DNA of 64,000 bases from Halorubrum sp. (GCA_028275105.1 JAQCNI010000008.1:764-64763), one strand, 5' to 3'; positions 47,122 through 59,332 are shown, numbered from the stretch's first letter. The notes: generated from the letters alone by a model not told the origin. Numbers and translations: made by a program.

Positions 47122-49080
47122 TCAATCCCCGTGACGCGTGACGCACGTGGACAGGCCGACCAGCTCCACGGGCTCGGAGTTGTCCGGCGAGTAGACGACC
47201 ATCTGTCCCTGTTCCATGTACGGGACCTTGCCGGCGAGGCTCGTCGGAATGTTCACGCTCTTGATGGCGTCCTCGTCGCCGAGGTTCAACACCACCTTCG
47301 TGTTGACCTGCTTGAACACCGACTCGGCGACGTCCTGTGGGTCCTGCGTGATGAGAAACAGTCCGAGTCGCTCCTTGCGCCCCTGTTTGGCGGCCTCGGT
47401 GAACTTCCCGATCACCCTGTTCGCCTGAACCGTATCGGCGTCAGTCAGGAAGTTGTGTGCCTCGTCCATCCCGATCAGCAACGGGGTCTCCTTGATCCGG
47501 TCGCTTCCCGGGTCGTTCGACAGTTTGTCGTCGATGAGCAGCGTCGACGCCACAAGCACGAACATCTCCTTCTGGCGCGAGGAGGCGAGGTGATACGTCG
47601 GGATCACCGTCAGCCCGCCCGGTCGAACGAGCGTGTGATCGAGGTCCGTGATCGGTTTCGCGTCGCCGTCGAAGACCCCGCCGGGCACCGCCCGGACGCG
47701 ACGCATCACGGCCTCGAACGTCTTCTCGTGGACCCGACCGGTCTCGTCGAGCTCCGTTTTCAGCGCCGGGTCGTCGAGGAACGAGAGGAACTGCCGGTAC
47801 GTCCCCGAGTCGCCGTGGCCGTCGAAGAACCGGTTCAGCAGGGTGAGCAACCCGGAGTACTGGTTGTCGTTGAGGCCGCTCCCCGCGATGAGCCACGGCA
47901 TGTCGTACTCGTTCACCATCGAGAACGGGATCGTGAACTCGACCTGCTCGGCACGGTGGCCGTCGGCGGAGTACGTCGCGTTCGGCACGGTGGGCACGAG
48001 CGCGACCGTGTCCTCGTGGCCGCCATGGGCGATCCCCTCCCGTTCCAGCCGCCGTGCGGTCGCCGCGTCGAGCGCGGGGTTGTCGTCGTGCATCTGGGCG
48101 TACTCGTCCTGTGGGTCGAACTGGACGACGGCCATCCGCGCCTCGCGGCCGTCGTCCATCGGGTAGGTCCGGTCGGAGTCGAGATACTGCCGGAGGACGT
48201 TCTTCGAGGCGTGGGTCTTCCCCGACCCGGTCCCGCCGGCGACGAGGGTGTGTCTGAACGCGAGCGGATCGCCGTCATCGTAGTCGTCGGTGATCCGGTA
48301 GTCGACGGTCGGAGGCTCCGCGGCGGTCCGGACCGTCTCGCCGCCGACCGAGAGATGCCCCAGGAACACGCCCGTTTCGGGGATCTTCAGGCCCGTCTTG
48401 ATCTCCGCGTCGTCCGCGGCCGCCTCGACCACCGCGCCCGGTTTCGGCACGCGGTCGGTCATCCGGCGGCTGAGCCCGTCGCCGTCGGCGTACACGACGG
48501 ACATCGGCTCCAGTTCGGCCATGAACTTGTAGTCGCGTTCCGCGAAGTCGTCGCGGCGCATCTGCCGCCGGGCGTGGATCTCCGTTGCGTCGTCGGAGCG
48601 AAACTCCTGGGCGTACTCGAGGGCGGTGATCCGACAGAACAGCCGTTCCCCGTCCGGGTACGGAACGATGAGGTACTTCCCGAGTCGAACCGAGTCGCGG
48701 TTGTCGGTCGTCACGAACGCCCGCAACGTCGTGTCCTCCGCCTCCTCGGCGACCCGGAGCCCCTGCGAGACGGAGACGACGCCGAGCCCGGCGTCGCTTC
48801 CGGCCGCCTCGGCGTCGTACGGGGCGAACTCGGCGTCACCCTCGGGGGCGCGGTCGGCGGCGACCCCCGGGTCCGGATCGGCCTGCGTCGCCCGCCCGGC
48901 GCCGCCGTCCACGGCATCCGAACCGTCCGACGTGCCGACGTCACCCGTCCCGTCGACGTCGGCCGACTCACCCTCGTCCGGGTCGGCCGACTCACCCTCG
49001 TCCGGGTCGGCCGACTCACCCTCGTTCGGGTCGGCCGACCCCTCGTCGTCGGTGAACTCGCTGAAATCCTCCAGGGTCAT
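47122..49080 (-). CDS. HerA-like (DUF87/FtsK-HerA superfamily) ATPase with an acidic repeat N-terminus
   Basis: An N-terminal barrel-like region, then Walker A LVAGGTGSGKTH and Walker B LIGMDEAHNF. EGESADPD occurs three times near the N-terminus (24-bp DNA repeat, about 48958-49045). Confidence 0.75.
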   Translation of the reverse strand: MTLEDFSEFTDDEGSADPNEGESADPDEGESADPDEGESADVDGTGDVGTSDGSDAVDGGAGRATQADPDPGVAADRAPEGDAEFAPYDAEAAGSDAGLGVVSVSQGLRVAEEAEDTTLRAFVTTDNRDSVRLGKYLIVPYPDGERLFCRITALEYAQEFRSDDATEIHARRQMRRDDFAERDYKFMAELEPMSVVYADGDGLSRRMTDRVPKPGAVVEAAADDAEIKTGLKIPETGVFLGHLSVGGETVRTAAEPPTVDYRITDDYDDGDPLAFRHTLVAGGTGSGKTHASKNVLRQYLDSDRTYPMDDGREARMAVVQFDPQDEYAQMHDDNPALDAATARRLEREGIAHGGHEDTVALVPTVPNATYSADGHRAEQVEFTIPFSMVNEYDMPWLIAGSGLNDNQYSGLLTLLNRFFDGHGDSGTYRQFLSFLDDPALKTELDETGRVHEKTFEAVMRRVRAVPGGVFDGDAKPITDLDHTLVRPGGLTVIPTYHLASSRQKEMFVLVASTLLIDDKLSNDPGSDRIKETPLLIGMDEAHNFLTDADTVQANRVIGKFTEAAKQGRKERLGLFLITQDPQDVAESVFKQVNTKVVLNLGDEDAIKSVNIPTSLAGKVPYMEQGQMVVYSPDNSEPVELVGLSTCVTRHGD

Positions 49081-51693: not shown

Positions 51694-52088
51694 CGGTTCG
51701 GACGTCGACGAACGGGCATAAACGTCTGGTGTTTGGAGAGGGGAGCGTCGTCGCGACGAGCGTCTTTCCACGCTCGCCGACGGGGGATTCGTTGACACGA
51801 GGACGGGAACCCACGGTGCGACCCTGTACCGACGGTCGGCGGGGTCGCTCGTCGTCGAACGGCCGGCGGACATCCTCTCGGAGGTTTCGATCGGCGGGCT
51901 CCGAGATCGGATCGCGGAGATGCGGGAACGGATCACGAAATACGACGGCAGTGTGTCGTTGCGTCACCGGAGGTGCCGGCGGTCGAACGAACTCCTCGAC
52001 GGGTCCGATGCCGACGGAGCCGAGCCCGATGAGTCCGAACCGGGACTTGTGCCGACGGTTTATATCGTTGAGACGTTGATGAGCGTGT

Positions 52089-52793
52089 ATGAGTGTTGTA
52101 TACGATTTCAGCGATCAGGTAGCCGTCGTCACTGGAAGTTGCGGAGCGCTTGGCAGTGCGGTCGCTACTGCGTTCGCTGATGCCGGGGCAACCGTCGCTG
52201 CCTGTGATATCGTCGACATCAACGCTGAAGAATCACTGCTCGAATCACGAGAGAACATCGCGTTTTATCAAGCGGACTTTACTGATAACGCCGTTGTCGC
52301 GGACACCATCGACCGAATCCTGAACGATCACGGGCGAATTGACTGTCTACTCAATGTTGCTGGGACGTGGCGTGGTGGCGACCCGGTTGAAGAGACCGAC
52401 GCTGACCTCTTCGAGATGTTGTTTGATGTTAATCTCAAGACGATGTTTCTTGCAACGAAACATGCGCTCCCCTCGCTTCAAGAGACGGAAGGCGCTATTG
52501 TGAGCGTCTCTGCGCGCTCCGGTACTGAGGGTGGAACTGGCGATGGACTGTACCGGGCGACGAAGGCGAGCGTCCGAATCATGACGGAGACGATCGCTGA
52601 GGAGAATCTTGGAACGGTAGAGGCGAACTGTGTCATGCCGAGCGTATTGGACACACCGATGAACCGTGAGATGATGACACCGAGCGATGAGTGGGTCGAT
52701 CCTGCTGATGTTGCCGAGGTGATCCTGTTCCTCTGTTCCGAAGCCGCATCAGTCACAAGCGGCGCGGCCGTCCCTGTCTACGGTGAAGCCTGA
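52089..52793 (+). CDS. SDR-family oxidoreductase
   Basis: VAVVTGSCGALGSAV (TGxxxGxG), NVAG and the Y...K catalytic pair (YRATK). Confidence 0.85.
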   Translation: MSVVYDFSDQVAVVTGSCGALGSAVATAFADAGATVAACDIVDINAEESLLESRENIAFYQADFTDNAVVADTIDRILNDHGRIDCLLNVAGTWRGGDPVEETDADLFEMLFDVNLKTMFLATKHALPSLQETEGAIVSVSARSGTEGGTGDGLYRATKASVRIMTETIAEENLGTVEANCVMPSVLDTPMNREMMTPSDEWVDPADVAEVILFLCSEAASVTSGAAVPVYGEA

Positions 52794-52807
52794 TCCCATA
52801 CACCGCG

Positions 52808-55675
52808 CTACCGGGTAATGGTCAGCGGTGATAGTTCGACCGTTTCGTCGTCGGCAGTATAGAAGATCTGTATCGAAATGTCCCGATTAGGGTATTCGTT
52901 CGCCACAACGTGGTAGTACACGCTGAGTTGCTTCCGGTATTCAGATTCAGCGTGACGGCCACGATCAGTTTTGTAGTCGATAATCTGAACCTGTTCCGGG
53001 GTAGTTACCAGTAGATCAATGATCCCGACGAGCGTAATCTGTGGCTCCAGATCAAGTGGCAAGATCGCTGTGATCTCCGGTTTAAGTGTACCATCGAGAG
53101 AATCAAGCAGCGTTTTGACGTGTTCTTGATCGCTACCGACGGGCGAAACGTCTTTTCTCCGAACGTAGTCTTCTGCGAACTGATGTAGTCGGTCTCCGAA
53201 CTCCGTTCCTCGTCCTTCGTCCACGTCGTCGTAGATACTGTCGTCCATAATCTCGTGGACGCTCAGTCGACGCGAACGGGAGCGTTCTGGAACCGTAACG
53301 GAGAACGCTTCATCGTCGACCTCTTCGAGTTCTCGCGCGGTAACGGATGGGTCAATCTCCGTTGAATCAACGGATAATTCTGTGAAGAATGGACTTGGAT
53401 TGTCTCCAGCGGTGAAGAACAAGTGTCGCTTCGCTCGTGTGACGGCGACGTAGAAGAGTCGGCGCTCTTCATCGTAGTCGGATGGAAGACAACCTGTTAG
53501 AAGATCGTACGACCAATGCTTGTACACGTACGGGCGTCCGTTCGAGTCATCATATACTGAGCGTTGTCTGAGACCGATCGGCTCCTGATACTGGATTGTC
53601 CCTGATGATGGCTTTCCGTAGTGGGGAAAGGCACGACGATTCATGTTTGCGCAGAAGACGATTGGATACTCTAGTCCCTTCGCGCCGTGGATCGTCTGTA
53701 GCGTCACGGAGTCATCACCTGGACTCGAATCGATCTCAACCGTCGACCCGGCTTCGAGAGTTGATTCAATGTACGCGATCGCTTCGCTCCAAGTCGAAAG
53801 CGTTGCGTCGTACATCCCGGTGAGTTCCCGAAGCAGGCCATTTGCATACGCCCCATCGTAGCCGTATTCATCAAAGACGGTTCGAGCGAACCCACCGAGC
53901 GTTTCACACTCACGGAGTTCGTCTCGAAACGCGATCATCGACTCGGGATACGCGTCCGTTTTGAGGGTCTCCTTGGCTCGTGGAAGCGTGTATCCAGCAT
54001 CTTCCAGTACTGCTGCCCATCCCCGTTTCTCATTGGCTTCACAGATTCGGAGCCACGCGAGGAGTAGCTTTGCTTGGTCGGTGTCGAACAGTTCGATTCC
54101 ACCTTCGTAGGCGATCGGAATCCCGTATTCCTGGGCCGTTTCGAGGAGTTCTCTGGCGAACGATCGCGTCCGTGTGAAGACGGCGATGTCGTCGTAGGAT
54201 GGCTTTCCAAGCCGTTCGCGTTCGGCAGCCGCTTTCTCGGAAGAAGACATCTCGTCGGTCGTTTTCGGCTCGTCTCGAACCTCAACGCTATACGTTTCGT
54301 TGTCGACGACGTGCTGTATCCGATCGAGAATTACTTCGGGTTCATCCTCGTGTGTCACCGCCTCGGTCCGGCTGTTATCGACGTGATTTGTCGCTTTTAG
54401 CGGCGTGAGTTCCTTCTCAATCGCGTCCTCATCGATCGATTCACTGCTAGTAGCTGGAACGGTCAGCGTTTCCGTGGCCAGCGACAGGATTGACTCCGTC
54501 GATCGGTAATTCAACTGTAGCGGGATCTCTTCGATGTCGTCGACTGGATACGTGATCCTGTCTTCGCCGCGGTTCAGTTCGGCTTTGTAGCGGGCGATTC
54601 GTTCGTCGAACCGTTGAATGTTTTCGACGGTGGTATACTGGAACCCGTAGATGCTCTGCTTCCAGTCCCCGACGACACAGATGTTGTCTCGCTCGGAGAG
54701 GAGCAGCGTGAGCTTGAACTGGAGTTCATTAGTATCTTGGAACTCGTCGACCATCACGTACTGATGTTGTACTCCCTTGCGGACGCCCGGATTTTCACAC
54801 AGCATCACGAACGCAAACGCGAGCATGAGGCCCTGTGTGAGGTAATTGCGTTCCAGTGTATGCTGTAGATACTCGAAGTACACGTCGTGGACGAACTCAA
54901 ACAGCTCTTCGCGGTCTTCATCGAATGCTTGCTCGACCGGGTCGGCGTGTACCTGCGGGTAGCCGACGATCTCGTCTGCAGTCGGTGCATCGGGTGCGTA
55001 TTCCGTGTTCTCCCAACCACTTACTGACGAGCGGGCATCGGATTGTATTGGACCGTTTGCGCCATCGTTCGGCTGATTCTGGCGCTCGAAAAGTTCCATG
55101 AACTCGTCCCGGTTTCCGTCGAGTGCCGCACCGGTCTCTCGATACCAGCCATCTCGGTGTGGGATCACGCCCTTTGCAGCGAGTTCAGCGACCAACGATC
55201 GAAGCGAACTGGGCGTGTCGATGGCAGCAAACAACTGTTCGTACTCCGGGTGTTGGTCCTCGAACCGCGAAGCAAATGTTTTGAACAGCGTTCGTTCCCG
55301 AAGTTCGTCCTCGATCAGATCCAGTGACTGTGGGATCTGGTCATTGATCCCGAGGTCGCTCGGTGTCTCGTGCCCGTATCGTCGGAGCAGTTGATAACAG
55401 TAGCCGTGGAACGTGCTGATCGGAGCGTCCTGTAGTTGGACGGGATCATAGGGAGATTGCTGAGCAATGCGATCTGCCATTTCCTCAGCCGCATTCCGGG
55501 TGAACGTGACTAACAGAATGTCATCCGGTTCGATTCCCGGCTGTTCGAGGATATTCGCGTACCGATGTGTGATGGTGAACGTTTTCCCGGTTCCAGCGCC
55601 GGCATTAACGAGATAGATCCCATCGGTACTATTGATCAACTTTTGCTGATCGGGATTGGGTGAAATCCTAGTCAT
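52808..55675 (-). CDS. UvrD/PcrA/AddA-like SF1 helicase fused to a C-terminal PD-(D/E)XK (RecB-type) nuclease
   Basis: Motifs: I NAGAGTGKT, Ia LLVTFTRNAAEEM, II VMVDEFQDTN, III VVGDWKQSIYGF, IV LNYRS, V TIHGAKGLEYPIVF, VI LFYVAVTRAKRHL. The nuclease part has GDRLHQFAE, GIIDLL, IIDYKTD and QLSVYYHV. Confidence 0.85.
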   Translation of the reverse strand: MTRISPNPDQQKLINSTDGIYLVNAGAGTGKTFTITHRYANILEQPGIEPDDILLVTFTRNAAEEMADRIAQQSPYDPVQLQDAPISTFHGYCYQLLRRYGHETPSDLGINDQIPQSLDLIEDELRERTLFKTFASRFEDQHPEYEQLFAAIDTPSSLRSLVAELAAKGVIPHRDGWYRETGAALDGNRDEFMELFERQNQPNDGANGPIQSDARSSVSGWENTEYAPDAPTADEIVGYPQVHADPVEQAFDEDREELFEFVHDVYFEYLQHTLERNYLTQGLMLAFAFVMLCENPGVRKGVQHQYVMVDEFQDTNELQFKLTLLLSERDNICVVGDWKQSIYGFQYTTVENIQRFDERIARYKAELNRGEDRITYPVDDIEEIPLQLNYRSTESILSLATETLTVPATSSESIDEDAIEKELTPLKATNHVDNSRTEAVTHEDEPEVILDRIQHVVDNETYSVEVRDEPKTTDEMSSSEKAAAERERLGKPSYDDIAVFTRTRSFARELLETAQEYGIPIAYEGGIELFDTDQAKLLLAWLRICEANEKRGWAAVLEDAGYTLPRAKETLKTDAYPESMIAFRDELRECETLGGFARTVFDEYGYDGAYANGLLRELTGMYDATLSTWSEAIAYIESTLEAGSTVEIDSSPGDDSVTLQTIHGAKGLEYPIVFCANMNRRAFPHYGKPSSGTIQYQEPIGLRQRSVYDDSNGRPYVYKHWSYDLLTGCLPSDYDEERRLFYVAVTRAKRHLFFTAGDNPSPFFTELSVDSTEIDPSVTARELEEVDDEAFSVTVPERSRSRRLSVHEIMDDSIYDDVDEGRGTEFGDRLHQFAEDYVRRKDVSPVGSDQEHVKTLLDSLDGTLKPEITAILPLDLEPQITLVGIIDLLVTTPEQVQIIDYKTDRGRHAESEYRKQLSVYYHVVANEYPNRDISIQIFYTADDETVELSPLTITR

Positions 55676-58431
55676 CGCTCTCGGTTTATCAGGATACAGT
55701 CGCGGTGAGTAACTCGATCCCAGTTCGGTCCATCGTCCCGATACGCGACCGGGAATCGGCTCGTTCGGTACTCGTTTAGTGCATCGAGTTGCTCGTCGAC
55801 GAACGCTTCGAAGGCCTCGAGATCGGATTCGAGCACGTAGCCGGTCGGTACGTCGTCAAGGTCGTCGATGACCATTTCACAGCCATCTCGAACGTACTTG
55901 TATTCCCCAACTCGTTCTTGCGTGTATTCGATGAACCGCTCAGTCACCAGATCGCGCTGATCTGGATCCTCACCGGCCCGTGGGAGCGCGTTGGCCTCGA
56001 AGAAGTCTCGATATGCGTCGTAGCCGAGCGACTGTAGGGCTTTACAACGATTGTTCGAATCGGCGTAGTCTGTCACCGTCTCGAACGTGTCCCGGCTGGC
56101 AACGAATTCATCAAACGTCGCCGGGACGTAGGTTATCGTCGTCACGAGATCAGCGGGATCAGGGGGTGTTCCTGCGAGGGCTTGTTCAATGTCGTGAAGC
56201 AGGTGAACGAAGTGTATCTCAAGGCGTTGGTCAGGGTGTTCTTCTCTGTGCTTTGCCAGGTAGGTGAGTACCTGAAAGTCGGGATACTCATCGACTGGAT
56301 CGATCGAGGCGGCATCGAGAATATCCGAAGCGTCGTTCTTGCGGCCGGTCTTGTAGTCCACGACCGACGTTTCATTTTGGAGCAGATCCACGTAGCCGTG
56401 AACCCCGATCGAGGGGGATGCAAACCACCGTTCAATGAGTGGCGAGTCAATTTCGACGCCGAGTTCGGTTGCGAGTTCATTCTCGCGGTCTCGATGATCA
56501 TACGTCCCGTGCGACGCTGGTTCCGCCGGGTTTTCGTCGAGGTACGCCATAATCGCATCTAAACCGACTTCGAGATGCGTGCGCTGGATGGATCGCTTGG
56601 CATCTCCGAGATACGGATCCAGTCGCTCGCACATCGCATCAAGCGCGTCTTGGCGTCGTCCCACCAAGACCGAGGGGTCACAAACATGGATCTCCGCTGC
56701 TTCATGGAGAACCGTACCTCGAACCATCGGGAGTGACTCGGGAGATTTGACGAGCCGGTCGAAATACGCGTCTCTTGGGGCGTTAACAAGCGATTTTAAT
56801 CGTGATTGACTGATCGTTGTCTTCGGCGTCGTTGATGCCTCGTCTGCCGCTGGGGAAGCGAACGGGTATGTCGGCGTCCCGGTCGTGTGCCCGCCGTGAC
56901 GCTCGTGGGGGAGATCGTCAAACCTTTCAAACGAATCATCAAGGAGCCGACGGAGATACACGCAGGGGGGTATATCATCTCCGGCCTGTGTTTCTTGTAC
57001 GAAGTAGTACCGCTGGTCGCCGTTTTGAAGCAGTCGTTCGAACCGTGCGACATCAGCTTCGAGAAACTCCGCTGGATCAACCCACGGGTAATCCGGTGGC
57101 GTTCGCGCCCACTCCGGGCCAAGACCGACGTAAAACACGATCGGCCTGTCAACGTACGCTGTCGAGGTGGCTCCCGTCAAGAGGACGCCGTCTCGATCGT
57201 TGGTATCCGTTGGTACGGTGAATGCATTCAGGTAATACTCGAAGTGGGTGACACGATCCTCGGTGACTGCTTCATCCAACAGTCCGAGAGCGTCAAGTTC
57301 TCGGCGAAGGTCCGTGAGCTGGGTATCGGCTGTCGCCTCGTAGACCGACAGGCTGTCACGGAAGGTCCCATTCCTGACGGTCTCTCGAAATTCATCGTAG
57401 CGACCCAACTGCTCAGAAGCGAGTGAATCGACCCGCCTTTTATCCAGTTCTCGGGGAATGTCGATTCCGGCCGTCGTGAGCACGGGACGGATTTCGGAGA
57501 GCCGCTGATTTGAGCCGGTAAACGTCGTTTCCAACAGGCGTAGTAGGCCTCGTACGTCCTCGTCTGCTTCGAATCCCGGGCCGCCACTGTATGGAATCCC
57601 TTCCGCTTCAAGTACTGATTCGATGAGTGCGCTATACAGGCTTCCCTCGGCGAGAACGATGCCGAATTGCTCCGCTGTATCGGCATCGATCTGTTCAATG
57701 ATGGTCTTAACAATCGATGTTGCCGATGGAAAGATTCGAAGTTCCGGGAACGAGGTCTGGGCGTCGGTTAGTGACGAGTACGTCTCATACTCGGTCGGCG
57801 GGGGTAGCATTTCCTGATCGAGTCTCGACAGTTGTTGTTCATCGACGACAGCAACATCCTGGTCTGCAGGGATCTTCGTCCGGTCGGCGGCGAGATAGCT
57901 GCTGTCCAGTTTGTCCAACAGCGCTACAACCGTCCGTGTGGCTGGCGTGTCGAACTCCGAGTAGTCGAGGATTGCTTCACGGTCACCGGTTGCGGTCCAG
58001 CAATCGATCGAAAGTTCGAGCGATCTGACAGCCTGTTTCCATGAGAGATCCGTTTGTTCGATCACCTCGAAAAACATCGGCCGGATGTCATCAGGGAACA
58101 TCTCTTGGGTGGCATAACTGCGAGGCGTCGCAGACAACCGGCCAATCCGTGGAGTCTGCACGCGGTTATCGAGGGCGAGGGAAAGCGGTGCATCAGTAGT
58201 GAGAACAATATCGTGATCTGTAACCGACGAATAGAGGTGATCGATTGAGCGCGCTTCACGTAATGGCACGTTCGGAACACTCACCGGACCGTCTTGAAGA
58301 TAACTCCGCGGTCGACTCGAAAATACACTCACAATAGATTCCGGATTACGCTCATCTGTAGCAACGAATACCCGGCATAGGATAGTCTCCGTTCCGTCAG
58401 CGAGAGCGTCTATCGCCGGCGAGTTCAGCAC
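55672..58431 (-). CDS. AddB-like partner: degenerate helicase-like N-terminal region (no Walker A) plus a C-terminal PD-(D/E)XK nuclease
   Basis: ISQSRLKSLVNAPRDAYF, GTVLHEAAE, GYVDLL, VVDYKTG and QVLTYLAK make up a RecB-family nuclease core. VAVVDEQQ and GIPYSGG recall helicase remnants. The stop overlaps the AddA-like ATG (ATGA at 55672-55675). GTG start at 58431. Confidence 0.65.
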   Translation of the reverse strand: MLNSPAIDALADGTETILCRVFVATDERNPESIVSVFSSRPRSYLQDGPVSVPNVPLREARSIDHLYSSVTDHDIVLTTDAPLSLALDNRVQTPRIGRLSATPRSYATQEMFPDDIRPMFFEVIEQTDLSWKQAVRSLELSIDCWTATGDREAILDYSEFDTPATRTVVALLDKLDSSYLAADRTKIPADQDVAVVDEQQLSRLDQEMLPPPTEYETYSSLTDAQTSFPELRIFPSATSIVKTIIEQIDADTAEQFGIVLAEGSLYSALIESVLEAEGIPYSGGPGFEADEDVRGLLRLLETTFTGSNQRLSEIRPVLTTAGIDIPRELDKRRVDSLASEQLGRYDEFRETVRNGTFRDSLSVYEATADTQLTDLRRELDALGLLDEAVTEDRVTHFEYYLNAFTVPTDTNDRDGVLLTGATSTAYVDRPIVFYVGLGPEWARTPPDYPWVDPAEFLEADVARFERLLQNGDQRYYFVQETQAGDDIPPCVYLRRLLDDSFERFDDLPHERHGGHTTGTPTYPFASPAADEASTTPKTTISQSRLKSLVNAPRDAYFDRLVKSPESLPMVRGTVLHEAAEIHVCDPSVLVGRRQDALDAMCERLDPYLGDAKRSIQRTHLEVGLDAIMAYLDENPAEPASHGTYDHRDRENELATELGVEIDSPLIERWFASPSIGVHGYVDLLQNETSVVDYKTGRKNDASDILDAASIDPVDEYPDFQVLTYLAKHREEHPDQRLEIHFVHLLHDIEQALAGTPPDPADLVTTITYVPATFDEFVASRDTFETVTDYADSNNRCKALQSLGYDAYRDFFEANALPRAGEDPDQRDLVTERFIEYTQERVGEYKYVRDGCEMVIDDLDDVPTGYVLESDLEAFEAFVDEQLDALNEYRTSRFPVAYRDDGPNWDRVTHRDCILINRER

Positions 58432-58552
58432 GGATCAGGAGCAAGTACTCACGTCTACAGATGAGCGTACGGAAATACATGGATGTGGGTACGGGGTTCT
58501 GTCTGGTAACTGGCTCGGTGAATATTGGATTACACAGGCGAAAAATCCGCTA

Positions 58553-58663
58553 CTACGGCTTACCGCGGGCAACCATCCGACGCTTTTCCTTTTCCTCTTC
58601 ACTGCTGTCATTTGGGCTTGCTTCTGACCGCTCACCAAACCGGTCGGAGATTATCTTCGTCAT
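58553..58663 (-). CDS. Candidate leaderless micro-ORF (36 aa) upstream of the AddB-like gene
   Basis: MTKIISDRFGERSEASPNDSSEEEKEKRRMVARGKP, not in the ORF track. The AT-rich block tatatatttaat (58691-58702) lies about 30 nt upstream of ATG 58663, which is the spacing expected for a haloarchaeal leaderless transcript. No homology evidence. Confidence 0.25.
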   Translation of the reverse strand: MTKIISDRFGERSEASPNDSSEEEKEKRRMVARGKP

Positions 58664-58707
58664 GTCCACCTGAACGTACAAGTTACACGCGTATATATTT
58701 AATTGTT

Positions 58708-58746
58708 GACACGTGCGCGTATGGGCGTTTCACGCGCTCTCACGTG
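58708..58746. promoter_or_regulatory. Imperfect inverted repeat acacgtgcgcgt-N11-acgcgctctcacgtgt in the divergent control region
   Basis: The arms at 58708-58719 and 58731-58746 are complementary apart from a 2-nt bulge. The repeat lies between the minus-strand helicase-nuclease operon and the plus-strand zinc-ribbon gene. Confidence 0.4.
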
Positions 58747-58842
58747 TGAATGCGCCCTTACGCGGTCGCCCGCGTGCGTGCTGGTGTTGTTAGGGCTATG
58801 GAATAGAACCAAGCCGAGCGAACCCCACAGACGAACGAACAC

Positions 58843-59184
58843 ATGGACTGTCCCATTTGCGGCGCGATGGTTGGCGAGTCAAATTATCCGAATCAGGTGT
58901 GCGACGAGTGCGACCGGCAAGCGGTGAATGAGAATGGTGACGAGCCGTGGCATGGGTGGCCGCCCGGTGAAGAGCCGGAGTCAGAAGACGGGACGATTCA
59001 CATGGCTCCCGACCGAGGTGAGAATCCTGTGTTCATTGACGGCGAGAAGTGCTGGCGGAGATACCGGTTCGGGGGTTGGGTAACGATGTTAGACAAGCAT
59101 GACTGTGAATCGCTCGAAGAGTTCTACCGAGAACACGATATAATCGCAGGATGTGACGGGCCCGGATGCGCCGACCGAATGTGA
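58843..59184 (+). CDS. Zinc-ribbon protein (hypothetical)
   Basis: MDCPICG...VCDECD is two CxxC pairs. 113 aa. No family recognised. Confidence 0.5.
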   Translation: MDCPICGAMVGESNYPNQVCDECDRQAVNENGDEPWHGWPPGEEPESEDGTIHMAPDRGENPVFIDGEKCWRRYRFGGWVTMLDKHDCESLEEFYREHDIIAGCDGPGCADRM

Positions 59185-59189
59185 GTGAA

Positions 59190-59235
59190 AGTAGATTTCC
59201 CCCGAAACCGCATGAATGCGGCGGGGCTATCTACT
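59190..59235 (+). terminator. Extended imperfect hairpin downstream of the zinc-ribbon gene
   Basis: Nested pairs agtagat/atctact, cccc/gggg and ccgcat/atgcgg between 59190 and 59235. A role as terminator or small RNA is inferred only. Confidence 0.3.
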
Positions 59236-59257
59236 TCAGGAAACTGCGGTAACGAAG

Positions 59258-59332
59258 TGGGTCGGGGCGGATTCGAACCGCCGGCCTGCTCCGTGTGAAG
59301 GAGCCGTCATAACCGGACTAGACCACCGACCC
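59258..59332 (-). tRNA. tRNA-Val (anticodon CAC)
   Basis: The reverse complement folds manually: acceptor gggtcgg/ccgaccc, anticodon stem gctcc/ggagc with loop ttcacac, T arm ggcgg-ttcgaat-ccgcc. 75 nt. Confidence 0.85.

What the first reader, a model, noticed from the sequence alone, without database searches (positions are those of the whole stretch)
52808..58431. Translationally coupled AddA/AddB-like dual-nuclease helicase pair in an archaeon
Gene 1 (955 aa) has all seven SF1A UvrD/PcrA helicase motifs plus a C-terminal RecB-type nuclease (GIIDLL, IIDYKTD, QLSVYY).

Gene 2 (919 aa) has no Walker A, keeps helicase-like remnants, and carries a second RecB-type nuclease (GYVDLL, VVDYKTG, QVLTYL) preceded by the SxSxL...Y entry motif. 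It has no obvious Cys cluster like the Fe-S cluster of Bacillus AddB.

Its stop overlaps the start of gene 1 (ATGA). This is the bacterial AddAB/RexAB architecture. Archaea normally resect DNA ends with Mre11-Rad50 and HerA-NurA, and the pair sits in a compositionally foreign island.

Possible roles are an acquired double-strand-break processing machine, or, as with bacterial RecBCD/AddAB, degradation of invading linear (viral or plasmid) DNA. I cannot tell from the sequence whether this family has been characterised in archaea.
Basis: partly seen in the sequence, partly recalled or inferred. Interest (0 to 1): 0.8.

Follow-up and report, generated by a model that had tools for sequence, protein, structure and literature searches.

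The report
Archaeal AddAB-like helicase-nuclease gene pair
Two overlapping genes in a low-GC island of a salt-loving archaeon encode what looks like the bacterial AddAB DNA-end-chewing machine, in a stripped-down archaeal lineage that nobody seems to have studied, although archaea are usually said to lack such enzymes.

Summary
Two minus-strand genes overlap by ATGA. Gene 1 (52808-55675, 955 aa) is a complete UvrD-type helicase with a C-terminal RecB-type nuclease. Gene 2 is a helicase-shaped protein with no ATP-binding loop and a second RecB-type nuclease. Its true start is probably GTG 58269 (865 aa), not 58431 (919 aa).

Predicted structures match AddB best for gene 2 (Foldseek E 3.5e-10, full length) and AddA best for gene 1 (E 2.5e-28). 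Sequence profiles do not reach AddB, and gene 1 scores far below the curated AddA cut-off.

The pair is a conserved module. In 81 of 83 related loci (the other two end inside the first gene) the genes are adjacent, and 79 of 81 junctions overlap by 4 or 8 nt. Catalytic residues are invariant.

The family looks archaeal. In Halobacteria it sits in variable, mobile-element-rich contexts (at least 131 loci, 35 plasmids). In Methanomassiliicoccales it is chromosomal and syntenic. Those relatives keep the four-cysteine iron-sulfur motif of AddB/Cas4, which the haloarchaeal branch has lost.

Best reading: a one-motor, two-nuclease DNA-end processor of the AddAB type, accessory in haloarchaea. Whether it serves repair or defence is open. 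I found no characterisation. It is a new variant of a known kind, of moderate to high interest.

The parts
55672..58269 (-). Gene 2, the AddB-like subunit (865 aa from GTG 58269). It has an inactivated SF1-helicase-like N-terminal part and a RecB-family nuclease.
   Evidence: Homologs are about 863 aa and start here. AF2 model pLDDT is 79.7. Foldseek top hit is AddB 4ceh_B, E 3.5e-10.
58270..58431 (-). Upstream extension of the ORF (54 codons). It is probably 5' leader or promoter region, not coding.
   Evidence: It is absent from all homologs. pLDDT is about 25. Nucleotide homology to the closest relative L087 ends at 58320.
56887..58269 (-). Helicase-like domain of gene 2 (ORF residues 55 to about 515). 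It has no P-loop: 'LTTDAPLS' occupies the position after strand 1. It keeps a 'GVLL...YVDRPxVFYxGLG' remnant.
   Evidence: Invariant columns are. None of 294 family members has a Walker A. Foldseek hits UvrD/PcrA at E about 1e-9 over about 620-660 alignment columns.
56194..56817 (-). RecB-family (PD-(D/E)XK) nuclease domain of gene 2. Motifs are SxSxL..(C/A)PR, G..H..AE, GxVDLL, DYK(T/S)G and Q...YL.
   Evidence: Pfam PF12705, E 5.2e-11. Invariant residues (919-aa numbering) are S543, P552, R553, G572, H576, A579, E580, G679, D682, D692, K694, G696, Q720, Y724 and L725.
55672..55675 (-). ATGA stop/start overlap between gene 2 and gene 1.
   Evidence: Sequence. The same ATGA occurs in 58 of 81 related loci, and an 8-nt overlap in 21 of 81.
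52808..55675 (-). Gene 1, the AddA-like subunit (955 aa). It is an active-looking SF1A UvrD-type helicase with a C-terminal RecB-family nuclease.
   Evidence: Pfam finds UvrD-helicase (9.1e-54), UvrD_C and PDDEXK_1. Foldseek top hit is AddA 4cej_A, E 2.5e-28.
53408..55657 (-). Helicase motor of gene 1 (residues 7-756). Motifs are Q10, GAGTGKT 26-32, TFT 57-59, DEFQD 310-314, GDWKQSIY 336-343, NYRS 389-392, TIHGAKGLE 661-669 and VAVTRA 743-748.
   Evidence: All are invariant in 18- and 22-sequence alignments.
52856..53200 (-). RecB-family nuclease domain of gene 1 (residues 826-940). Motifs are H831..AE835, GIIDLL 884-889, DYKTD 900-904 and QLSVYY 916-921.
   Evidence: Pfam PF12705, E 1e-09.
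52050..59256 (.). Low-GC island (GC about 0.52-0.58 against 0.68). It holds the pair, a convergent SDR gene (52089-52793, +) and an orphan Cys-rich ORF (58843-59184, +).
   Evidence: Composition profiles. There is no integrase and no att-type repeat.
59257..59332 (-). tRNA-Val(CAC). Its 3' end abuts the island.
   Evidence: ARAGORN, Rfam 63.8 bits. No second copy of its 3' end exists in the window.

Best explanation
The two genes most likely encode a heterodimeric, ATP-driven helicase-nuclease of the AddAB type that acts on double-stranded DNA ends.

Shown here:
- Gene 1 has every catalytic motif of a UvrD/PcrA-type (SF1A, 3'-5') motor and a RecB-type nuclease.
- Gene 2 has the fold of such a helicase but no nucleotide-binding loop, followed by a second, catalytically intact RecB-type nuclease.
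- The two genes are always adjacent, in the order addB-like then addA-like, with overlapping stop and start codons. Their divergence from the window's proteins rises and falls together across loci.

Inferred by analogy with B. subtilis AddAB:
- The two proteins form a 1:1 complex.
- The gene 1 motor pulls the 3'-ended strand through the complex and its nuclease cuts that strand.
- The 5'-ended strand passes over the dead helicase domain of gene 2 and is cut by the gene 2 nuclease.
- The dead helicase domain is the obvious candidate for reading a regulatory (Chi-like) sequence.

At cell level the enzyme would resect broken ends for recombination and, as a by-product or as its main job, destroy unprotected linear DNA. 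In haloarchaea it is an accessory, horizontally moving two-gene module, not part of the core repair set. The haloarchaeal branch works without the iron-sulfur 'staple' that its Methanomassiliicoccales relatives and bacterial AddB carry.
For: Domain content comes from Pfam.

Fold matches are reciprocal. Gene 2 matches AddB (4ceh_B E 3.5e-10, 1238 alignment columns, TMq 0.42), ahead of AdnA (1.1e-9), UvrD/PcrA and RecC (7e-7). Gene 1 matches AddA (2.5e-28), ahead of RecB (about 1e-25) and PcrA/UvrD (about 1e-22).

Catalytic residues of the motor and of both nucleases are invariant. None of 294 gene-2 relatives has a Walker A.

An adjacent gene-1 homolog follows on the same strand in 81 of 83 loci; the other two end inside gene 2. 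There are 58 ATGA and 21 eight-nucleotide overlaps among 81 junctions. Identity of the two proteins to the window's proteins across loci correlates at Pearson r = 0.97, which mostly reflects clade structure (Spearman 0.40).

Methanomassiliicoccales relatives have four invariant Cys (C516, C866, C869, C875 of P0054) in the AddB/Cas4 pattern C...CxxCx5C. hhalign places that segment on the C1121/C1124/C1130 region of AddB.

Short motifs line up with verified B. subtilis AddB: SQSRLKSLVNAPRDAYF with SVSRMETFNACPFSHF (my reading of the two sequences), and VVDYKTG...QVLTYL with IVDYKSS...QMLTYL.

The accessory nature in haloarchaea rests on several results. No flanking gene family is shared by more than 9 of 83 loci. 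The recurring ones look by eye like ParA, Orc1/Cdc6, integrase, TnpB, SNF2 and McrBC proteins; those names are my reading of the sequences, not a family search. Thirty-five PLSDB plasmids, all haloarchaeal, carry the family. The nearest relative (87.7% nt identity) shares only the two genes plus about 50 nt upstream. One species, Halorubrum sp. CSM-61, has three copies.
Against: No sequence-based method links gene 2 to AddB. phmmer and an HMM profile against PDB sequences find nothing. NCBIfam AddB models hit neither branch. hhalign probability is 10.6% against a one-sequence template. BLASTP gives E 0.74.

Gene 1 scores below every curated cut-off: addA_Gpos 161.8 bits against 707.65. It scores higher against PcrA, at 214.9 bits.

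TM-scores are modest (0.36-0.43), and the gene 1 model is only moderately confident (pLDDT 64).

Complex formation, ATPase activity, nuclease polarity and any Chi-like control are inferred, not shown.

B. subtilis AddB needs its Fe-S cluster for DNA-end binding (PMC3321194). The haloarchaeal protein has none, and its conserved C-terminal tail is modelled with pLDDT below 50.
Confidence: 0.7

Rival explanations
1. The enzyme is the same, but its selected role in haloarchaea is defence. It would be a mobile anti-virus or anti-plasmid module that degrades incoming linear or nicked DNA, and would not be a repair factor.
For: Distribution is patchy. The pair is often on plasmids or megaplasmids (35 PLSDB records) and can be multi-copy within a genome. 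Flanks are variable and low in GC, and contain genes that look like integrases, IS elements and ParA, plus genes that look like McrBC, SNF2 and SMC proteins. The closest relative shares only the two genes. [quoted passage not shown]
Against: Gene 2 has no PADLOC hit, and gene 1 hits only generic UvrD-type models. No sensor or self-marking partner is conserved next to the pair. In Methanomassiliicoccales the pair is chromosomal and syntenic, which looks like housekeeping. Bacterial AddAB does both jobs, so the two roles are not exclusive.
Confidence: 0.3
2. The pair serves the mobile elements or megaplasmids that carry it. It might process replication or recombination intermediates, or degrade competitors, with no benefit to the host.
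For: The pair is frequent on plasmids and sits next to genes that look like plasmid partition (ParA) and replication (Orc1/Cdc6) genes in subsets of loci.
Against: No single flanking family recurs in more than 9 of 83 loci. The window's copy lies in a chromosome-like context of housekeeping genes, with no replication or partition gene in the island. No phage record carries it.
Confidence: 0.12
3. The two proteins do not form an AddAB-like complex. Gene 1 would be a stand-alone UvrD-Cas4-type helicase-nuclease of the kind described in bacteria and mesophilic archaea, and gene 2 an unrelated PD-(D/E)XK nuclease that merely shares the operon.
For: UvrD-Cas4 fusions that act in varied contexts are known (PMC5704561). 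Gene 1 scores best against PcrA-type models. No sequence profile links gene 2 to AddB.
Against: Co-occurrence with overlapping codons is strict, at 79 of 81 junctions. Divergence of the two proteins is correlated across loci. Gene 2 has a full helicase-like fold whose best match is AddB over its whole length. The Type III restriction-modification or Dcm/Vsr context typical of UvrD-Cas4 was not seen among recurring flank families.
Confidence: 0.06

Closest known systems
Bacillus subtilis AddAB (PDB 3U44, 4CEH and related entries)
   Same: The gene order is addB then addA. One subunit has a full SF1A motor plus a RecB nuclease. The other has an inactivated helicase fold plus a second RecB nuclease. 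AddB and AddA are the best structural matches for gene 2 and gene 1 respectively. The nuclease motifs are shared: SxSx(L/M)...(C/A)P, DYK and Q..TYL.
   Different: The archaeal proteins are much shorter: 955 and 865 aa against 1232 and 1166 aa. The AddB-like subunit lacks the Walker A that B. subtilis AddB keeps. The haloarchaeal branch lacks the four Cys of the Fe-S cluster. Sequence similarity is below the reach of HMM methods. The pair is accessory and mobile in haloarchaea, not core.
Bacteroides fragilis AddAB (short AddB, biochemically validated; PMC2887965)
   Same: [quoted passage not shown] It has the same Cys...CxxCx5C layout as the Methanomassiliicoccales branch of this family.
   Different: It is bacterial and keeps the Fe-S cluster.
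RecBCD (RecB with RecC)
   Same: RecC, like gene 2, is a helicase-shaped protein with no nucleotide-binding site. RecB has the architecture of gene 1. Both are significant structural matches.
   Different: The nuclease-like domain of RecC is inactive (PMC3321194), whereas gene 2 has invariant catalytic residues. No RecD-like third gene accompanies the pair.
Mycobacterial AdnAB
   Same: It is a heterodimer of two helicase-nuclease-shaped subunits. AdnA is the second-best fold match of gene 2, at E 1.1e-9.
   Different: [quoted passage not shown] Gene 2 has no Walker A.
UvrD-Cas4 fusion proteins of bacteria and mesophilic archaea (Hudaiberdiev et al. 2017, PMC5704561)
   Same: A UvrD-type helicase is fused to a PF12705 nuclease, and the authors suggested a link to defence.
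   Different: Those are described as single proteins, stand-alone or next to Type III restriction-modification or Dcm/Vsr genes. Here an obligatory second, AddB-like subunit is present.
Archaeal Mre11-Rad50 and HerA-NurA
   Same: They are the accepted archaeal end-resection machinery, and so perform the same overall task that AddAB performs in bacteria.
   Different: They are unrelated proteins. A HerA-family ATPase gene lies in native high-GC DNA of this window at 47122-49080.

Membership tests
AddAB-type helicase-nuclease | Two adjacent co-directional genes, with addB upstream of addA | tested here: met
   Window. An adjacent downstream gene-1 homolog is present in 81 of 83 related loci; the other two end inside gene 2. 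79 of 81 junctions overlap by 4 or 8 nt.
AddAB-type helicase-nuclease | AddA: a complete SF1A (UvrD/PcrA-like) motor with a C-terminal RecB-family nuclease | tested here: met
   Pfam domains. All motifs are invariant. The best fold match is AddA.
AddAB-type helicase-nuclease | AddB: an inactivated UvrD-like helicase fold followed by an active RecB-family nuclease | tested here: met
   AF2 model with pLDDT 79.7. Foldseek top hit is AddB over the full length. Nuclease residues are invariant.
AddAB-type helicase-nuclease | AddB retains helicase motif I (Walker A), as in B. subtilis | tested here: not met
   There is no P-loop in the window protein or in any of 294 relatives. The feature is described in PMC3321194.
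AddAB-type helicase-nuclease | 4Fe-4S 'iron staple' (Cys...CxxCx5C) flanking the AddB nuclease; present in many AddBs, not all | tested here: not met
   It is absent from the window protein and from all 126 best-scoring clusters. It is present in 54 of the 73 lower-scoring clusters listed and invariant in the Methanomassiliicoccales alignment.
AddAB-type helicase-nuclease | Match to the curated NCBIfam AddA or AddB equivalog models above their cut-offs | tested here: not met
   addA_Gpos scores 161.8 bits against 707.65, and addA_alphas 142.5 against 860.75. No AddB model hits gene 2 or the Fe-S branch.
AddAB-type helicase-nuclease | Heterodimer with ATP-dependent dsDNA-end unwinding and degradation, modulated by Chi | not testable with these tools
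   This needs multimer modelling and biochemistry.
RecBCD | A RecC subunit with an inactive nuclease-like domain, and a RecD second motor | tested here: not met
   The gene 2 nuclease motifs are invariant. No third conserved gene accompanies the pair.
AdnAB | Both subunits carry Walker A and Walker B motor motifs | tested here: not met
   Gene 2 lacks a Walker A.
Known anti-phage defence systems (PADLOC-DB 2.0) | Both proteins match models of one catalogued system | tested here: not met
   Gene 2 has no hit. Gene 1 hits only generic UvrD-type models (GajB, DRT helicase).

The most novel reading that the evidence does not exclude
Archaea have their own AddAB-like lineage. It is inherited vertically, with an iron-sulfur cluster, in the anaerobic Methanomassiliicoccales. 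In haloarchaea it has lost the cluster and become a freely exchanged two-gene cassette whose main selected role is to destroy invading linear DNA, or to feed CRISPR adaptation. Its dead helicase subunit may read an archaeal Chi-like self-marker. That would bring RecBCD/AddAB-style discrimination between self and foreign DNA into a domain of life where it is currently stated to be absent.
Probability: 0.3. Interest if true: 0.75.

Novelty: new variant of a known kind. Interest (0 to 1): 0.6.

Why it matters
Current descriptions of archaeal DNA-end processing rest on Mre11-Rad50 and HerA-NurA. A 2026 preprint on haloarchaeal CRISPR adaptation states that RecBCD and AddAB nucleases are not present in archaea. 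An older paper only mentions in passing that addAB may have been transferred 'even into the archaea'.

This scan found an AddAB-shaped enzyme pair in at least 131 loci in species-representative haloarchaeal genomes and on 35 haloarchaeal plasmids. It is also a syntenic chromosomal pair in Methanomassiliicoccales.

If the pair is active, it matters in four ways:
- It adds a bacterial-style end-resection and DNA-degradation route to archaea.
- It makes the search for archaeal Chi-like sequences concrete.
- It bears on how archaeal CRISPR systems get spacer substrates.
- It offers a natural experiment on how an 'iron-staple' nuclease can dispense with its iron-sulfur cluster.

It is also a compact AddAB (955 + 865 aa), which may be convenient for structural work.

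Tried and rejected
- **Sequence links from gene 2 to AddB.** All failed or were not significant: phmmer and an HMM profile against PDB sequences, NCBIfam on both branches, hhalign against verified B. subtilis AddB (prob 10.6%, C-terminal Cys region only) and BLASTP of the nuclease domains (E 0.74).
- **A conserved third gene (RecD-like, sensor or methylase).** None found. No flank family is shared by more than 9 of 83 loci. The P-type ATPase downstream in Methanomassiliicoccales is synteny, not an obvious partner.
- **Integration at tRNA-Val.** The tRNA abuts the island, but there is no duplicated tRNA 3' end, no direct repeat and no integrase.
- **Viral origin.** tblastn finds nothing in 50,697 phage records. 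BFVD fold hits are only generic helicases or small nucleases. PHROGs hits are generic helicase and exonuclease families.
- **Known defence system.** PADLOC has nothing for gene 2.
- **The 324-aa ORF downstream of the HerA-like gene as a NurA-like partner.** Rejected. Its translation is Arg/Pro-rich off-frame junk.
- **The small ORFs upstream of gene 2 as parts of the module.** The 113-aa Cys-rich ORF is not found near the pair in other loci. For the 36-aa ORF the test used a mis-framed query, so its conservation is untested.
- **Cromie 2009 (J Bacteriol 191:5076) and Yeeles 2009 (JBC).** These would say which archaea were already noted and which AddBs lack the cluster. Neither is held in the library.
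Full report
**What is in the sequence**

On the minus strand there are two long ORFs: 52808-55675 (955 aa, ATG) and 55672-58431 (919 aa, GTG). The junction reads CGAGAGCGATGACTAGG, so the TGA stop of the upstream gene overlaps the ATG of the downstream gene as ATGA.

GC falls from about 0.68 to 0.52-0.58 between roughly 52100 and 59300. A tRNA-Val(CAC) at 59257-59332 abuts the island with its 3' end. The tRNA 3' end is not duplicated anywhere in the window, no direct repeat brackets the island, and there is no integrase gene.

**One correction to the gene model**

The 54 clusters of gene 2 homologs found by word-indexed search are about 863 aa long. They all begin at residue 55 of the window ORF, which is a GTG at 58269 reading VPLREARSID (MPLREA... 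in relatives). The first 54 residues have pLDDT around 25 in the structure model. Nucleotide homology to the closest relative ends at 58320. Gene 2 is therefore most likely 55672-58269, 865 aa.

**What the proteins are**

Gene 1 carries Pfam UvrD-helicase (E 9.1e-54), UvrD_C and a C-terminal PDDEXK_1 domain. In alignments of 18 and 22 homologs down to 31% identity, these helicase motifs are invariant: the Q motif, GAGTGKT, TFT, DEFQD, GDWKQSIY, NYRS, TIHxxKGLE and VAxTRA. So are the nuclease motifs H..AE, GxxDLL, DYKTD and QxSxY.

Gene 1 scores below every curated NCBIfam cut-off: PcrA 214.9 bits against 911, addA_Gpos 161.8 against 708, recB 140 against 696. It is not an equivalog of any named enzyme. 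Its predicted structure is only moderately confident (pLDDT 64). That structure matches AddA best (4cej_A, E 2.5e-28), then RecB (about 1e-25), then PcrA/UvrD (about 1e-22).

Gene 2 has only a PDDEXK_1 hit (residues 539-746, E 5.2e-11). It has no NCBIfam or PADLOC hit. Neither the single sequence nor a 24-sequence profile finds anything among PDB sequences.

Its predicted structure is good (pLDDT 79.7 overall, mostly 80-96 in the core). The model matches the AddB chain of B. subtilis AddAB best, over the whole length (4ceh_B, E 3.5e-10, 1238 alignment columns, TMq 0.42). Next come AdnA (1.1e-9), UvrD/PcrA over the N-terminal half (about 1e-9 to 1e-7) and RecC (7e-7).

So the N-terminal 460 or so residues have an SF1 helicase fold. 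The P-loop position after the first strand reads LTTDAPLS. None of 294 full-length family members has a Walker A-like motif.

The nuclease motifs are invariant across the family: S543, P552-R553, G572/H576/A579-E580, G679/D682, D692/K694/G696 and Q720/Y724-L725, in 919-aa numbering.

I checked a recalled B. subtilis AddB sequence against 3u44_B. It matched over residues 1-1166 at 2644 bits, identical in the printed part of the alignment apart from one active-site position. Against it, only short motifs align. VVDYKTG...QVLTYL aligns with IVDYKSS...QMLTYL at BLASTP E 0.74. By my own reading of the two sequences, SQSRLKSLVNAPRDAYF parallels SVSRMETFNACPFSHF.

The relation to AddB is therefore established at the level of fold and motifs, not by sequence statistics.

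**Is it a unit?**

A scan of one genome per species found 131 confirmed loci, of which 80 were kept. In 81 of the 83 related loci then in hand, the gene 2 homolog is followed directly, on the same strand, by a gene 1 homolog. The other two end inside gene 2.

Fifty-eight of 81 junctions are ATGA and 21 are 8-nt overlaps of the form ATGNNTGA (two end in TAA). Identities of the two proteins to the window's proteins co-vary across loci. Pearson r is 0.97, driven mainly by clade structure; Spearman is 0.40.

Nothing else is conserved. No flanking family is shared by more than 9 of 83 loci. The closest relative is a metagenomic contig with 87.7% nucleotide identity. It shares exactly the two genes plus about 50 nt upstream, and its flanks are unrelated. 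This is a self-contained two-gene module.

**Where the family lives**

All named relatives of the window's branch are Halobacteria from many genera. Several are on plasmids or secondary chromosomes, and one species (Halorubrum sp. CSM-61) has three copies. tblastn finds the family on 35 PLSDB plasmids, all haloarchaeal, and in no phage record.

The flanks in haloarchaea are mostly low in GC (0.50-0.60). Read by eye rather than by a family search, the recurring flank proteins look like ParA, Orc1/Cdc6, tyrosine recombinases, TnpB, SNF2 helicases and McrBC-like and SMC-like proteins.

An exhaustive profile search of 1.84 billion representatives gives 562 clusters at E <= 1e-3 and 287 at E <= 1e-30. 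None of the 126 best-scoring clusters, which are acidic and halophile-like, has a C-terminal Cys motif. Fifty-four of the next 73, which are less acidic and 880-900 aa long, end in CxxCx5C.

In an alignment of 23 of these, four Cys are invariant: C516 in a CPR context, C866, C869 and C875. This is the pattern of the AddB/Cas4 iron-sulfur 'staple'. hhalign places this segment on the C1121/C1124/C1130 region of AddB, though with low probability. The Cas4 model gives weak hits in 17 of 23 members.

Sources name these proteins as coming from Methanomassiliicoccaceae, Ca. Methanoplasma, Methanomethylophilaceae and other Thermoplasmata. In three of their chromosomes and one metagenomic contig the pair sits in the same neighbourhood: a thioesterase gene upstream, then the pair, then a P-type ATPase. 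An RNase_T-family gene follows the ATPase in the three chromosomes.

So the family looks archaeal. It is syntenic and probably inherited vertically in Methanomassiliicoccales, and mobile and accessory in Halobacteria.

The four-Cys motif is shared with AddB, Cas4 and Dna2 (PMC3321194). About half of the haloarchaeal proteins listed from the first search (27 of 53) also contain a Cys-(Pro/Ala)-Arg triplet, which in the aligned members falls at the CPR position. The simplest reading is that the haloarchaeal branch lost the cluster. I found no bacterial member. One locus is labelled 'uncultured bacterium' (L080), but it is a metagenome bin.

**How it most likely works**

By analogy with B. subtilis AddAB (PMC3321194), the two proteins would form a heterodimer that binds a duplex end.

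- The gene 1 SF1A motor translocates 3'-5' on the 3'-ended strand, and its nuclease cuts that strand.
- The displaced 5'-ended strand runs along the dead helicase domain of gene 2 to the second nuclease.
- In AddB and RecC the dead helicase domain is the Chi scanner, so it is the natural candidate for any sequence control here.

The domain content, the catalytic conservation, the fold matches and the obligatory pairing are shown. Complex formation, polarity and regulation are inferred.

Two features differ from the textbook enzyme. The AddB-like subunit has no Walker A, which B. subtilis AddB retains and RecC lacks. The haloarchaeal branch also has no Fe-S cluster, which in B. subtilis is needed for nuclease-domain integrity and DNA-end binding. 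The conserved C-terminal tail that replaces the Cys motif (FP...GPNWDRVxHRD) is modelled with low confidence. How the domain is stabilised is unexplained.

**Biological role**

Bacterial AddAB both prepares breaks for recombination and destroys unprotected linear DNA. The haloarchaeal distribution is patchy, plasmid-rich, multi-copy and set in variable contexts rich in mobile elements. That argues against a core repair role and fits a defence or accessory function. The syntenic chromosomal position in Methanomassiliicoccales fits housekeeping. I cannot separate these roles computationally, so I give the defence-first reading about 0.3.

**What is already known**

Some pipelines already label gene 1 homologs 'ATP-dependent helicase/nuclease subunit A' or 'exodeoxyribonuclease V subunit beta'. 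Gene 2 homologs are only 'PD-(D/E)XK nuclease family protein' or hypothetical.

A 2010 paper cites Cromie (2009) for the possible transfer of addAB 'even into the archaea'. That paper is not in the library. A Cas4 phylogenomics study notes UvrD-Cas4 fusions in mesophilic archaea, but not this pair. A 2026 preprint states that RecBCD and AddAB are not present in archaea and that H. volcanii has no direct homologs. Six literature searches found no characterisation of the archaeal pair.

I therefore rate it a new variant of a known kind. It is an AddAB-type machine in a distinct archaeal lineage, with a P-loop-less B subunit, which is also free of the Fe-S cluster in haloarchaea.

**Verdict**

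The AddAB-like interpretation is supported by structure, motifs, gene order and strict co-inheritance. Membership of the curated AddA/AddB families is not met at sequence level. The implied recent bacterial origin is not supported. Interest 0.6.

Noticed in passing
window 59257-59332 (-): tRNA-Val(CAC) sits with its 3' end directly against the low-GC island, which is the usual geometry of tRNA-targeted integration. There is no duplicated tRNA 3' segment, no flanking direct repeat and no integrase in the window.
   Followed up: yes
window 58843-59184 (+): A 113-aa Cys-rich ORF (MDCPICG...CDECD...) lies inside the island, divergent from gene 2. It has no hit in Pfam or PHROGs and is not found next to the pair in any other locus.
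   Followed up: partly
window 58553-58663 (-): A 36-aa ORF (MTKIISDRFGERSEASPNDSSEEEKEKRRMVARGKP) lies upstream of gene 2. It is preceded by an A/T-rich TTAAATATATA stretch about 35 nt before its ATG, which may be an archaeal TATA box. Its conservation elsewhere is untested, because my one tblastn check used a mis-framed query.
   Followed up: no
window 58349-58468; L072 1886-2005: A 121-nt stretch just upstream of the true gene 2 start is 82% identical to a spot about 8 kb upstream of the pair in Halorubrum salipaludis (L072). No other locus matches. It may be a small repeated or mobile element.
   Followed up: no
window 47122-49080 (-): A 652-aa HerA-family ATPase (Pfam DUF87 35.3 bits and HerA_C 26.4 bits, both above cut-off; weak matches to anti-phage and repair HerA models) lies in native high-GC DNA 3.7 kb from the island. 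Its 90%-identity cluster has no other member. The 324-aa ORF downstream of it is off-frame junk, so no NurA-like partner is evident.
   Followed up: partly
window 52089-52793 (+): A short-chain dehydrogenase gene with island-like GC (about 0.55) converges on gene 1 with a 14-nt gap. It is not associated with the pair elsewhere; only distant SDR paralogs (about 28% identity) occur far from the pair in three loci.
   Followed up: partly
L084, L085, L086 and L001: In Methanomassiliicoccales the homologous pair sits in conserved synteny: a 4HBT thioesterase gene upstream, then the pair, then a P-type ATPase. RNase_T follows in L084-L086, and exonuclease VII genes lie nearby in two. The AddB-like protein there has four invariant Cys in the Fe-S pattern.
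   Followed up: yes
L009, L037 and L069 (Halorubrum sp. CSM-61): One haloarchaeal genome carries three divergent copies of the pair on different contigs (58%, 36% and 35% identity to the window's gene 2). Natrinema pallidum and Haloterrigena sp. H1 carry two.
   Followed up: no
window residues 892-919 of the gene 2 ORF (about 55675-55758): The C-terminal tail that occupies the place of the CxxCx5C motif is well conserved in haloarchaea (F893 and P894 invariant; P902, R906, V907, R910 and D911 at 90% or more). AlphaFold models it with pLDDT below 50. It may fold only against a partner or DNA.
   Followed up: no
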